In this document: positions 29,201-33,763 of the stretch, piece by piece
How the letters are laid out: every line of letters starts with the position of its first letter
Position numbering within the stretch: the stretch's first letter is position 1
DNA from: Paraspadella gotoi
Taxonomy: Eukaryota > Animalia > Chaetognatha
Assembly: GCA_051294375.1 (NCBI GenBank)
Contig: CM119266.1
Coordinates: 749,554-813,553 of the forward strand
Direction of reading: 5' to 3'
Length of the DNA stretch: 64,000 bases
The notes under the pieces: generated by a model
What the model saw: only the letters and a program-made list of their open reading frames with translations
The model's database searches: none
What the model was told of the DNA's origin: nothing
Made by a program: the position numbers and the translations under genes

Positions 29201-32200
29201 CTTGCCCACGGCACGAACCGAAGTGCGAAACAAAGGCACGATGACGACGACGACGACTACGACCACGACGACGACGACGACGATTACTCCGCCTCAAAGG
29301 TTTGACACTTGATGGAATAATGTTTCGCTTTCACTCGATTTTCTCTCTCTCNNNNNNNNNNNNNNNNNNNNNNNNNNNNNNNNNNNNNNNNNNNNNNNNN
29401 NNNNNNNNNNNNNNNNNNNNNNNNNNNNNNNNNNNNNNNNNNNNNNNNNNNNNNNNNNNNNNNNNNNNNNNNNNNNNNNNNNNNNNNNNNNNNNNNNNNN
29501 NNNNNNNNNNNNNNNNNNNNNNNNNNNNNNNNNNNNNNNNNNNNNNNNNNNNNNNNNNNNNNNNNNNTTTTTTTTTCAGTCTTTTTTTTTTCTTCGGCCT
29601 AAAACAAAAGTTGTTTTTATTTCTCTTTTTCCCCTCGCCTGCCACCTGCCACCTGACGTTGTTCCTTTTCGGCACCTGGCGAGGTTGCACCTGCCACCTA
29701 CGCTCGTTTCGATTACAGCCTCCAACCTTCAGTTGTTTTGTTTTGCTTCAGTTTCTCGTTATTTATTTATTTATTTATTTATTTATTTATTTATTTATTA
29801 TATTTATTTATTTATTTATTTATTTATTATTTATTATTTATTATTTATTATTTATTTCATTTGAATATATAGCGCTATTTTATTTTCAATCCACCTCAAT
29901 GTCACCCACGCTACGCTACACTACACCACGTCGCCTCTCCTACCCCGCCCCCTTCTCTCCCATAACTTACCCGCACGTTGAGCTCCCTGTTGGCGCCCTG
30001 TTCTCCTTTCCGGGGATAGAGGGCGGTGTGGATGCCGGCGCTTCGTTCCCAAGATCCGTGGAGGTCGTAACTCATGAGATCGATGAAATCGAGCACCTAG
30101 CGGCTGGAGTAGGAGTGGAATGGTGAAGTAGGAGTGGAAGGGGTGGTAAGGTTAGGGACGGTGAGGTGGCTGAAGTAGGGATGGAGGGGTGGAGCGAGGT
30201 AGTAGAAAGGCGAAGGTGTGGAGCAAGGGAGGAGCGGATGTGGTGGAACGGAGGCGGTGGAGCGGAGTGGAGAGTAAAGGATCGGGAATTAAATGCAGCA
30301 AGGGAGTTTGATAATATCGGGAGGTGACGGAGAGAAAAAACGACAGGTGCCGACGCGTTTAGTTAAACGCTGACAGGTGTCGTTGTATTTTTGGATCTAA
30401 AACAAAGATTGAATTTTTAGGACTTTTTCTTTTGTCAAGGAAAGGCCCGAATAAAATAGAAAGAAAAAAAGAAAGAAAGAAAGAAAGAAAGAAAGAAAGA
30501 AAGAAAGAAAGAAAGAAAGAAAGAAAGAAAGAAAGAAAGAAAGAAAGAAAGAAAGAAAGAAAGAAAGAAAGAAAGAAAAAAAGAAAGAAAAAAAAAATAA
30601 ATAAATAAATAAATAAATTATATGATAATCCTTTCTTTTCGTTGTAAATGATTTAGAGAAAAAACAAAGTTTTATTAGTTTCAACGAATTTGTTGAAACT
30701 AATAAAACTTTGTTTTTTCTATAAATAAATTAATAAATTAATAAATTAATAAATAAATAGATAGCTAGCAAATCCTCTCTAACCTTGGCGATCTTAGCGA
30801 TCTCGTAGGCCTGGCTGGCGTACCACTTCCCCGCCGCCACGGCAGCGGCCAGCAGCAGCGGCTTATCCTGCTGCTTGTAGGCAGCGTGCAGCTTCTCGCA
30901 GAGCTTGGTGAATGCTGGCTTGTGGGCGGGTTTGGACCCGCGCTCGGGGAGACCGGGGTATTCCCAATCCAAGTCGAGACCGTCGAAGCCGTACTTGCTG
31001 GAGGAGGAGGAAGAGTAGGAGGAGGAGGAAGAGGAAGAAGCAGAGGAGCGAAAGGTTAATAGAGTATTTATAATCTATTTAATAATAATTTCCCATTTTT
31101 CTCACTTTCCTCCCCATTTTTTCTTTTTTCTTTCTTTTCGCAAAATCATCCTTTGTTAAACAGGTAAGTTTTTTGGAATTTTCTCATCTTTGGAAAATCC
31201 GCGTAAATCACAACGAATTTATGTGTCTATTATTGCCACGTAATCAAGGCTTATACTATCTCGAGTTTACAACTGTGGCAAAGTTTGGGTGGCGCGAGAT
31301 CGCCGTTTCTTTCCCGCATTTTTCCCGTCTTCTCATCCCTTTCCCCCCCCTCTCTCTCTCTCATCCCTTTTTCCCCTCTCTCTCTCCTCCCTCTTCCTCT
31401 CTCACTCTCTCTCTTTTCCCTTTTTCCCTCTGCCCTTCCTCACTTTAAAAACTGTATGGAGAGTGGACGAAAGAGTCCATGGACGCCTCGGAGGCCACTA
31501 TGTCCTTGATAGCCGTCGGAGGCGGCGTTCCATCCTCGATGCGAAGAGGAAACTTGAGTTGTGGATTCACCTGAGTAGAGGGGGGCGTTGGAGGGGGAGT
31601 GAAAGTGGCGATGGGGGCGGGAACGATACAGTGAGATGCAGGGTGGCGACTGGCGAGTTGAAAGTGATATTTTATAGGGATAAGGCAGTTTAAATCGGCA
31701 AGAGCTAGCTGAGAAATAATGCGTGTCTAAGCCGCTCTAAACTTATGTCTTGATTTTCTCAATTTATTTTTAAAATAGTAATTTAGCCACAAAGAATGAG
31801 TGGTAAAATCTAATTTTCGCGGAGTAAAAATCCACTCATAGACGTTATAGTTTTTATAAATAAATCATTATGCCATTTTGGAATGATTTATTTCATTAAT
31901 TAATTATTATTCAGATATTGAAGTGAATTAAAATACCTTCTTGAGCTCCATGAGTCGCCCAATGACTTCGTTCGTCGTTGGCTCAAAGGTGCAAGTTCCC
32001 ATTTTTGATCGTCCCGAAGGAGAAGATGATGTGAGTGCAAAAGAGTCGGGTTCTACGTCCTCGGCCAAAACTCACCCCCTGTGACAGGACGTAATTTCAG
32101 CTCAAACAAATATTACATATATGAATGGATTTTATCACACATCGAACATCAGGGATTTGAGAACAAGAAAGTATATACGAAGATCTTGAAGAGGGTGGTT

Positions 32201-33763
32201 TTACAGGCGCCACACCCGCAGCGCGGTTCACCTCGTGGCGACAGCGAGACAGCATGTTTCATGTAGTCTCAAGCTTTGATCTGGCAGTGGCCATGCCTAC
32301 AGGCGGTTACCCGGTCCATCCACTTTCTACATTGACACCTCAGGCTCACCAAGAGGACGCACTATGCGATGGGATGCATATAGTCACTGAGCCACTGGGC
32401 GCTGCGAAAGAATCAGCTTTTAATCATCTGTGGTGAATAGAACCACCCAGAATCTATTTAATCGATTTCTAAAACTAATTAATTGTTTCTAAAAACTATT
32501 AATTGCTTTTTTGAAAAAAATTGTTTTGAGTTAATGTAGTTTAGTTCCACCGTTTTCTATAATGACCTTTTTTTTGTTCTATATATTTGAAATTATTGAT
32601 ATTGATAAAAACCCATTGAACGATAACCTTATTTATTAGGTATCAACAATGCCATTTTTCGCTTAACAGAGAGCACTTTTAGGAATAATGAACGTGAAAT
32701 TATAACCACCATGATCCACCAAACTATTACTATATAATTATAAGAAAAATATTAACAAAAAAATATAAGGAAGGAAACGGAAGATCACGAATGGTCAAAG
32801 GAGGAGGGCGACCGATAGACAGAAATGGAAATCGAATAGAGGAACAAAAAGGCAGAAAATTTCGTGGAAGGGAATCGGAGGTCAGATTCGCTCCGATGAA
32901 AATGTCTTGAGGAAAAGTGGGCGGAGAGGGAGGAGCGGAAAGGGGGAGGGAGATGTGAGGAGGGGGAAGTAGGAGTGGGGGTAGGAGAGGAGAATTGGGA
33001 AGGTGGTTGAGATGAAGGGAGAAAGTAGGAGGAGAGAGGAAGAATGGAAAGAGACCAAAGAGTAAAGGAGGGAATACATAAAGAATCAGTCATGTGAGGA
33101 TTTAAAAGAAACTATGAGTAGAAAGCAATTTGGAGACAAACGAGGAGTCAGAATTAGTGAAAATTAGGATTAGAAAAGTAATAACGAGCAGCGGAGAGAC
33201 AACTGAAATATCAAACTTAGCAGGAAGAAGATAAAGAGAAATCAGTGAGGAGAGACAAAAAAAGAGAGAGAAAAAAGAGCGAAAAAAAAAGCCAAAAGAA
33301 AAAAAAATAGTGAGAAAAAAGAAACGGAAGATTAAGAAATTTAACAGAATGAATCGGGTAAGATAAAAAGAAGAAAAATATTTAAAAAATTACCATAAGA
33401 GAAAATAATATTTAAGCTTTGCTGTTTTTTTTCATAATCGCCGAAACAAATTAACCTGTCAGTTATATTTTGACAAAACATCTGGGAATTTAAAAAAAAA
33501 CTAAGTAAAAAATTTTTTTCCTGTTTTGGTTTCAACATTGAGGAATATAATTTCGCGTTGGTCGCTTATTGGTCTGTTTCAATTTGCTCGCTCCACTTCA
33601 GGCTTGTCTTCAATCTGCCCTTCCTACTTGTACTGAGTCCGCTCCTTACCTTCAGGCCTGTACTGCCGCCCAGTTTGGTGTAGTAGCAGTACGATCTTGT
33701 ATTCGGCTGTGACGCCAGCCGACAAAAGCGGCGAAGAGGAGAGACAAAAAACATCGACGCCAT
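26259..33763 (-). CDS. GH18 chitinase with signal peptide, Gly/Asp linker and C-terminal CBM14 (peritrophin-A) domain; exons approx. 33763-33650, 32078-31938, 31570-31444, 30997-30784, 30096-29971, 28831-28700, 27811-27608, 27140-27030, 26739-26511, 26332-26259
   Basis: YKIVCYYTNWAQYR and DPTLCTHIIFSF (read cleanly in the duplicate copy), catalytic FDGLDLDWEYP, LMSYDLHGSW, EKLVVGMGMYGRSF, WVGYDNPK, GLGGAMIWAIDLDDF, and a six-Cys tail ending CPAGLLFNPDMSICDWPRNVKRDDCK*. Exons 1-3 carry indel noise, and one junction (29971/28831) is off by one base. Confidence 0.93.
27308..27556. repeat. Intronic minisatellite, 45-bp unit, ~5.5 copies
   Basis: TCATTACTTCTGTCATTGCTTAATAATAGTTAATTCTTTCATAAT in tandem. 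Confidence 0.9.
27926..28130. mobile_element. ~205-bp interspersed element (HINE/Helentron-like ends, tRNA-like core), copy 1
   Basis: Same boundaries as the copies at 54532-54736 (inverted) and 63257-63461. Subterminal inverted repeat AACCGTTCA/TGAACGGTT followed by the stem-loop GGTGGA-TTTTAG-TCCACC. Confidence 0.8.
32187..32451. mobile_element. 265-bp structured insertion with ATCT target-site duplication in chitinase intron 1
   Basis: Absent from the duplicate intron, which reads GAAGATCTATTTAAT at ~35141-35155. ATCT flanks it at 32183-32186 and 32452-32455. Near-terminal inverted repeat GGGTGGTTTTA/TAGAACCACCC. Confidence 0.7.

What the first reader, a model, noticed from the sequence alone, without database searches (positions are those of the whole stretch)
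32187..32451. Compact, highly folded, apparently pseudoknotted 265-bp insertion with a 4-bp TSD: candidate new mobile structured RNA
Seen: a roughly GC-balanced, high-complexity block sits in an AT-rich intron. It is cleanly absent from the duplicate intron (~35141) and is flanked by ATCT on both sides. Helices visible by eye: closing stem GGGTGGTTTTA 32193-203/TAGAACCACCC 32438-448; CGCCAC 32208-13/GTGGCG 32235-40; GAGACAGCATG/CATGTAGTCTC 32246-70; AAGCTTTGAT 32271-80/ATCAGCTT 32412-19; CAGTGGC 32285-91/GCCACTG 32391-97; CTCAG/CTGAG (competing for G32391); and small hairpins CTC-GAG and CGCA-TGCG. An 8-bp perfect complement links the loop of the first hairpin (CGCAGCGC 32217-24) with a bulge in the long arm (GCGCTGCG 32399-406), which would be a loop-bulge kissing pseudoknot. 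Inference: a multi-branch fold with a tertiary contact is more typical of a ribozyme or other ncRNA than of a simple foldback MITE. The topology recalls the alpha-alpha' contact of group II domain I, but there is no GUGYG start or domain V, and no canonical hammerhead CUGANGA core or group I core. It has no convincing ORF, so it would be non-autonomous.
Basis: partly seen in the sequence, partly recalled or inferred. Interest (0 to 1): 0.85.

Follow-up and report, generated by a model that had tools for sequence, protein, structure and literature searches.

The report
tRNA-derived jumping repeat in an intron
This 265-base piece in a chitinase intron is one copy of an abundant repeat, present at this site in one sample and absent in another, that likely descends from a tRNA-containing SINE-type retroposon; the proposed ribozyme-like knot is not supported.

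Summary
The insertion is real. It is missing from the second copy of the intron. One public DNA run shows only the empty site and another shows the flank running into the element. The element's depth is about 340-800 times that of its flanks, so it is a high-copy dispersed repeat. The 2.9-kb 'duplicate' is probably the other allele.

The fold is ordinary: z -2.5, and perfect stems are not enriched over shuffles. Rfam finds nothing.

The element is colinear with a second repeat family in the window (three copies). That family carries a tRNA-derived block on the opposite strand, shares one terminus and a terminal hairpin, and differs by compensatory changes in internal hairpins. Profile searches missed this link.

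Best reading (55%): a non-autonomous, tail-less SINE-like retroposon with an internal tRNA module. Rivals: Helentron-type rolling-circle element (22%), ribozyme-bearing element (10%), MITE (8%).

The parts
32187..32451 (.). Element A: one noisy copy of a high-copy dispersed repeat, in intron 1 of a GH18 chitinase gene
32183..32186 (+). ATCT, left copy of the target duplication (2-4 bp, boundary ambiguous)
   Evidence: empty junction in run X5
32452..32455 (+). ATCT, right copy of the target duplication
32187..32193 (+). Terminal motif TGAAGAG, shared with the two full-length copies of family B
32193..32224 (+).
   Evidence: alignment A3
32260..32302 (.). Two internal hairpins homologous to family B, with compensatory changes when family variants are read
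   Evidence: tables 4 and 7; pairs counted by hand
32337..32400 (-). Inferred degenerate tRNA-derived block: A-box-like TGGCTCAGTG at 32394-32385, acceptor-like pairing in family variants, no B box in this copy
   Evidence: colinear with B's tRNA block; not detected by the tRNA model or ARAGORN
32399..32406 (+). Right arm of the long-range 7-8 bp helix; lies just outside the tRNA-like 5' end, like the right arm of B's 9-bp inverted repeat
32427..32451 (+). Terminal segment: right arm of the closing stem or, in family variants, a local terminal hairpin; this end coincides in the copies seen
   Evidence: loose ends (X2 32436, X5 32437)
35145..35148 (+). Empty site in the second copy (34302-37003), probably the other allele
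27923..28130 (+). Family B copy 1, lacking about 27 nt at the TGAAGAG end; tRNA-like block 28026-28098 on -
   Evidence: E 1e-4
54532..54765 (-). Family B copy 2; tRNA-like block 54565-54635 on +
   Evidence: E 0.04
63228..63461 (+). Family B copy 3; tRNA-like block 63358-63429 on -
   Evidence: E 0.02
31937..32084 (-). Chitinase exon 2 (frameshifted in this noisy copy, intact at 34893-35036); its splice acceptor is about 108 nt from the element

Best explanation
The block is one copy of a high-copy dispersed repeat, inserted with a 2-4 bp target duplication, that likely descends from a tRNA-derived SINE and is predicted to move through an RNA copy using a reverse transcriptase supplied by another element. 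Shown: high depth, different flanks, filled and empty sites, the short duplication, no coding frame, and a tRNA-derived block in sister family B. Inferred: that A and B are homologous (about 85%); that A's 32337-32400 is a decayed tRNA module; and that integration was target-primed. The tRNA module sits inside the element, 30-50 nt from the hairpin end, so its own Pol III promoter would not copy the whole unit. The mobile RNA more likely comes from read-through or from a promoter in the extra end segment, as proposed for mollusc LP-SINEs. The hairpin end coincides in all copies seen and truncations fall at the TGAAGAG end, so reverse transcription most likely starts at the hairpin, which would stand in for a tail.
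For: Depth 340-802 times the flank in 4 of 4 runs laid (the tool warns that summed contig depth is not a copy number). Contigs carry the element next to unrelated DNA (tables 7-8). Empty contig in X5, flank-into-element contig in X3. A against B: local scores 53-58, reached by 0 of 848 window tiles and by 0-1 of 1500 dinucleotide shuffles under two gap-tolerant schemes, on one strand only; the two are colinear and share a terminus. A tRNA model built from 19 E. coli tRNAs and one window tRNA ranks the three B copies directly after the two true tRNAs among 14 hits; ARAGORN at a lowered threshold calls the same block in 3 of 3. B folds at z -4.5 and -3.4. Counted by hand variants, changes on both sides affect 3 of 6 pairs in one hairpin, 1 of 5 in another and 4 of 7 in the acceptor stem. 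A target duplication argues against rolling circle (PMC4067079 section 6). Extra sequence upstream of a tRNA head has precedent (PMC4758252).
Against: A was not found by nhmmer or by a covariance model built from B, nor by the tRNA model or ARAGORN. Under two strict scoring schemes the A-B score is weak (10-559 of 1500 shuffles reach it). No B box in this copy and no poly(A) or microsatellite tail. Only 1 of 3 B copies has a possible duplication. The tRNA module lies antisense to the RNA that the truncation pattern implies. No partner reverse transcriptase was identified. The hand-counted pairs rest on 1-12 contigs per place and on my own alignment.
Confidence: 0.55

Rival explanations
1. A and B are non-autonomous Helentron-type (HLE2/HINE) rolling-circle DNA elements that carry a captured tRNA-SINE fragment; the terminal hairpin and sub-terminal inverted repeat are signals on single-stranded DNA.
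For: B has a 9-bp inverted repeat whose right arm is followed at once by a terminal stem-loop. All 3 B copies are followed by T, can be read as preceded by T, and mostly lack a duplication. HLE2 right ends are more constant than left ends (PMC11417382 passages). Such elements were first taken for retroposons or MITEs (PMC4067079 passages).
Against: A's resolved empty site holds no TT at the junction and at least 2 bp are duplicated; HINEs do not modify their target. The arms are 7-9 bp against 11-18, lie 30-40 nt from the left end, and differ between A and B. Compensated internal hairpins are not expected of passenger DNA.
Confidence: 0.22
2. The + strand carries an HDV-like self-cleaving ribozyme (P2 = the reader's knot helix, L3 at 32230-36, catalytic C at 32395), or a hammerhead remnant at the TGAAGAG end, which frees the element from intron transcripts.
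For: A loose descriptor hits the window copy at exactly these places, and 224 of 20000 shuffles pass it. By hand, family variants close P3 (with one U-G to C-G change) and supply a CNRA motif in register; 0 of 20000 shuffles pass a descriptor of that tightness, but I relaxed it after seeing the sequence. HDV-like ribozymes occur in LINEs and SINEs (PMC6765202 passages).
Against: Three tighter descriptors give no hit on the window copy. L3 begins with A where the conserved U pairs with G (PMC3774820 passages). P1 has a mismatch, P1.1 has one pair, and a simple triloop hairpin competes for L3. The cut would fall 7 nt inside the element's end. P1 5' and P2 5' lie in the segment that B lacks. No GAAA follows stem II for a hammerhead. 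Rfam shows nothing.
Confidence: 0.1
3. It is a MITE of a cut-and-paste transposon, with the 11-bp end repeat as its TIR.
For: Arms 32193-203 and 32438-448 are 91% complementary; short target duplication; high copy number.
Against: The arms start 6 and 3 nt inside the ends. Family variants keep the pairing only through G-U wobbles and one mismatch (by hand). B has no such repeat, and copies are truncated at one end.
Confidence: 0.08

Closest known systems
tRNA-derived SINEs (SINE2), especially pectinoid MESC SINEs and LP-SINEs (PMC4758252)
   Same: Short, non-coding, high-copy, target duplication, tRNA-derived module with extra sequence upstream of it, structured body.
   Different: No tandem-repeat or poly(A) tail; the extra segment is a 30-50 nt hairpin of unknown origin, not a 70-bp Nimb/RTE 5' end; truncations fall on the side that would be the SINE 3' end.
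HINE / DINE-1 / HLE2 non-autonomous Helentrons (PMC4067079, PMC11417382)
   Same: Asymmetric ends, sub-terminal inverted repeat followed by a terminal stem-loop (clear in B), constant hairpin end.
   Different: A has a target duplication and no TT junction; the arms are shorter and not shared between A and B; an internal tRNA module is present.
Metazoan non-LTR retrozymes and Schistosoma SM-alpha (PMC7761336, PMC6765202)
   Same: Size of 150-300 nt, self-pairing, no coding frame; SM-alpha has an internal Pol III promoter.
   Different: No complete hammerhead core, no tandem arrangement seen, and the CUGAAGA-like motif lies on the strand opposite the tRNA module.
HDV-like ribozymes of R2/RTE/ingi elements (PMC3774820, PMC4908430)
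   Same: CCUCG loop, 7-bp long-range helix and CNRA in the right order on the + strand.
   Different: Conserved L3 U missing, weak P1 and P1.1, about 150 nt between P1.1 and J4/2, predicted cut not at the element's end.

Membership tests
tRNA-derived SINE | Short, high-copy, interspersed, non-coding | tested here: met
   only a 91-codon stop-to-stop frame overlaps it
tRNA-derived SINE | tRNA-derived module with A and B boxes | tested here: inconclusive
   Met for family B. In A: A-box-like motif and colinearity, but no model hit and no B box in the noisy copy
tRNA-derived SINE | tRNA module at the 5' terminus | tested here: not met
   30 nt (B) to 50 nt (A) of element sequence precede it; so not filed as a canonical SINE2
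tRNA-derived SINE | 3' tail (poly-A or microsatellite) or LINE-derived 3' end | tested here: not met
   No tail at either end; no LINE library was available to test a LINE-derived end
tRNA-derived SINE | Target-site duplication | tested here: inconclusive
   2-4 bp at A; possible in 1 of 3 B copies
tRNA-derived SINE | Pol III transcript and partner LINE | not testable with these tools
   No whole genome held
HINE / HLE2 | Terminal stem-loop after the right inverted repeat | tested here: inconclusive
   Met in B; in A only in family variants
HINE / HLE2 | Sub-terminal inverted repeats of 11-18 nt | tested here: not met
   9 bp in B, 7-8 bp in A; A's 11-nt repeat overlaps the terminal hairpin instead of preceding it
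HINE / HLE2 | T|T insertion without target change | tested here: not met
   A's empty junction has no TT and is duplicated; B's junctions are compatible but have no empty site
HINE / HLE2 | Autonomous RepHel partner with the same ends | not testable with these tools
   No whole genome held
HDV-like ribozyme | Nested double pseudoknot with conserved L3 U-G pair and CNRA | tested here: not met
   Strict descriptor 0 hits; only the loose one hits; L3 starts with A
HDV-like ribozyme | Self-cleavage | not testable with these tools
   bench assay needed
Hammerhead retrozyme | CUGANGA, stem II, GAAA, stem III, UH core | tested here: not met
   no GAAA after the putative stem II in A or B
MITE | Inverted repeats at the very termini | tested here: not met
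   arms offset by 6 and 3 nt; absent from B
Group I / group II intron | Catalytic core elements | tested here: not met
   No Rfam hit; GACTA motifs on - belong to local hairpins

The most novel reading that the evidence does not exclude
A and B form an undescribed class of tail-less retroposons in which a tRNA module is clamped by a long-range helix and a terminal hairpin replaces the tail as the reverse transcriptase's recognition signal; family A may have gained an HDV-like self-cleaving module on the opposite strand.
Probability: 0.12. Interest if true: 0.65.

Novelty: new variant of a known kind. Interest (0 to 1): 0.3.

Why it matters
As it stands, it is a young presence/absence marker and an unusual arrangement of SINE parts in an invertebrate genome. 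It also shows how a noisy long-read copy can produce perfect-looking helices and a false tandem duplication. If the novel case held, it would show that a retroposon can be mobilised without a tail and without using its tRNA module as a 5' promoter, and would point to a reverse transcriptase that recognises a terminal hairpin.

Tried and rejected
No whole genome is held. A second laying of reads gave no result, so the family sequence, especially 32338-32404 where depth drops about 50-fold, remains unresolved and variants were read by hand. No RNA holder was listed among 9 runs; this says nothing on expression.

BLAST against plasmids, phages and E. coli: no match. An 18-mer in metagenome contigs gave 25 loci, none extending beyond about 31 nt and most GC-rich, so chance. 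Viral and prokaryote scans: 0 hits except one 18-nt chance hairpin in a phage contig. Rfam: nothing near a gathering score for A or B3.

A recalled likeness to RTE 5' and 3' ends was dropped. Motif searches in the PMC5786205 supplement gave only short matches, and the letters upstream of TGAAGAG are probably the flank of one locus (median loose end 20 nt). Recalled likenesses to a tRNA-Trp 5' end on + and to V-type SINE bodies were not supported: the tRNA model found nothing in A and the mollusc SINE supplement showed only generic A-box hits (4 of 5 files searched). A hammerhead-like motif at 54006 lies in what reads as a coding frame of a MATE-like gene and was set aside. Twister, group I and group II cores were not found.

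A guess at the animal group had no support from my calls and is not claimed; the closest chitinases are unnamed. Earlier findings: nothing relevant. Dfam, Repbase and SINEBase were not available, so the family may already have a name. Ten paper searches showed no description of this arrangement, which is weak evidence.
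Full report
Setting. The window is from an animal-like genome with short introns. The element lies in intron 1 of a GH18 chitinase on the - strand (Pfam; exon map against a close unnamed relative), about 108 nt from the exon 2 acceptor. Exons 1-3 occur twice (31365-34265 and 34302-37003) while the remaining catalytic-domain exons occur once. The two copies join at an N gap and differ mostly by indels: 56 gaps and 17 substitutions in 870 columns, 129 and 36 in 1939. Public contigs agree with the second copy at 15 of 27 listed flank differences. The simplest reading is two noisy alleles scaffolded in tandem; this is inferred.

The insertion is real. All coordinates check, and the element is absent from the second copy. 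Four public DNA runs from three samples were laid on 31400-33400. In X5 one contig crosses the site empty, with the junction letters of the second copy. In X3 one contig runs from 31847 to 21 bases inside the element without a break at the junction; that is short of the tool's 31-base rule, so the filled allele in X3 is suggested, not proven. Depth at 32224 and 32304 is 340-802 times that of flank contigs in 4 of 4 runs. The tool warns that this is no copy number, but together with contigs that join the element to unrelated DNA it shows a dispersed repeat of the order of hundreds of copies.

The fold. Folding z is -2.46 on + and -1.68 on -. Perfect stems are not enriched, and a third of shuffles contain an 8-bp complement. 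In the predicted ensemble the knot helix forms as a nested stem and excludes the first hairpin and the long arm, though the program cannot model knots. Family variants change the picture further: the eighth pair of the knot helix is missing in 82-99% of depth, T32269 is mostly absent, and an added A behind 32288 bulges the long arm and completes a local hairpin instead. The closing stem does persist, with two G-U pairs and one mismatch (by hand). Rfam gave no match near a gathering score.

A sister family. The window holds three copies of a 208-235 bp repeat, B. The two full copies start with TGAAGAG, as A does, and all three end in a hairpin of the form GGTG...CACCA. A aligns to B colinearly, with an A-only segment of about 24 nt near one end and about 21 extra nt at the other. 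Local scores of 53-58 exceed all 848 other window tiles and are reached by 0-1 of 1500 shuffles under two gap-tolerant schemes, on one strand only; under two strict schemes they are weak. Profile HMMs and a covariance model from B did not find A. I put homology at about 85%, because the shared terminus and the compensated hairpins are independent of the score: by hand, variants, 3 of 6, 1 of 5 and 4 of 7 pairs change on both sides in two body hairpins and the acceptor stem.

The tRNA module. A tRNA model ranks the three B copies third to fifth in 64 kb, after two true tRNA-Phe genes (E 1e-4, 0.02, 0.04), and ARAGORN at a lowered threshold calls the same block. In A the matching stretch, 32400-32337 on -, has an A-box-like motif and, in family variants, a 7-bp acceptor-like stem, but no model detects it and no B box is seen. 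This is the stretch where the window departs most from the family (depth falls to about 400).

Mechanism. Shown: high copy, dispersal, filled and empty sites, a duplication of at least 2 bp, and a tRNA block in B. Inferred: RNA-mediated spread by a borrowed reverse transcriptase. The hairpin end coincides in 3 of 3 B copies and in the three A ends seen; truncations (B copy 1, and an A copy starting at 32191 in X3 and X5) fall at the other end. Target-primed copying starts at the constant end, and the G-U pairs of the closing stem also favour the + strand as RNA, although the tRNA module is on -. That conflict is unresolved. Since 30-50 nt precede the tRNA module, its own promoter would lose that end, so read-through or a promoter in the extra segment is required. 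PMC4758252 (passages, section 10, 4 of 5 supplement files) describes SINEs with extra sequence upstream of the tRNA head.

Rivals. B resembles HLE2/HINE elements (PMC11417382 passages; PMC4067079 passages and section 6), but those do not modify their target and insert at TT, which A does not. An HDV-like reading of the + strand passes only a loose descriptor (1.1% of shuffles pass), lacks the conserved L3 U (PMC3774820 passages), and uses the segment B lacks. Background read: PMC5786205 (parts 2-3 of 5, supplement part 1 of 15 and term searches), PMC7761336 (parts 1-3 of 6), PMC6765202 (passages), PMC4908430 (part 1 of 4), PMC8501958 (abstract and outline), PMC2997562 and PMC3879986 (passages). 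The HDV numbering and the Pol III box patterns are recalled.

Verdict. A real, young, non-autonomous repeat with an unusual order of SINE-like parts, not filed as a canonical SINE because the head position and tail tests fail. The evidence does not support a new catalytic RNA. No repeat library could be searched, so the family may already be named. Interest 0.3.

Noticed in passing
window 27923-28130, 54532-54765, 63228-63461: Family B: tRNA(Gly/Trp)-like block flanked by a 9-bp inverted repeat and a terminal hairpin; folds at z -4.5 and -3.4; a cleaner example of this arrangement than the finding itself.
   Followed up: yes
window 31365-34265 vs 34302-37003; 23631-25220 vs 25370-26983; 53508-53783 vs 54787-55062: Near-identical duplicated segments next to N gaps, two of them repeating parts of the chitinase gene; probably alleles or overlaps scaffolded twice.
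   Followed up: partly
window 39385-39457 and 44237-44310: Two intact tRNA-Phe(GAA) genes on the - strand.
   Followed up: no
window 55984-56050: Weak tRNA-like stretch (E 2.5 with the tRNA model) with a T-arm resembling that of family B; possibly a third decayed tRNA-derived repeat.
   Followed up: no
window 40980-41112: Long near-perfect palindrome (about 130 bp) with AT-rich ends; foldback or MITE-like.
   Followed up: no
window 52570-52685 and 59271-59386: Two copies, 84% alike, of a 116-bp GC-balanced repeat with internal palindromes.
   Followed up: no
window 14062-15343: Tandem array about 1.3 kb long with many self-matches at about 85% identity.
   Followed up: no
window 33590-33660 and 36335-36430: The end of chitinase exon 1 and its splice donor are repeated two to three times in tandem inside the intron.
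   Followed up: no
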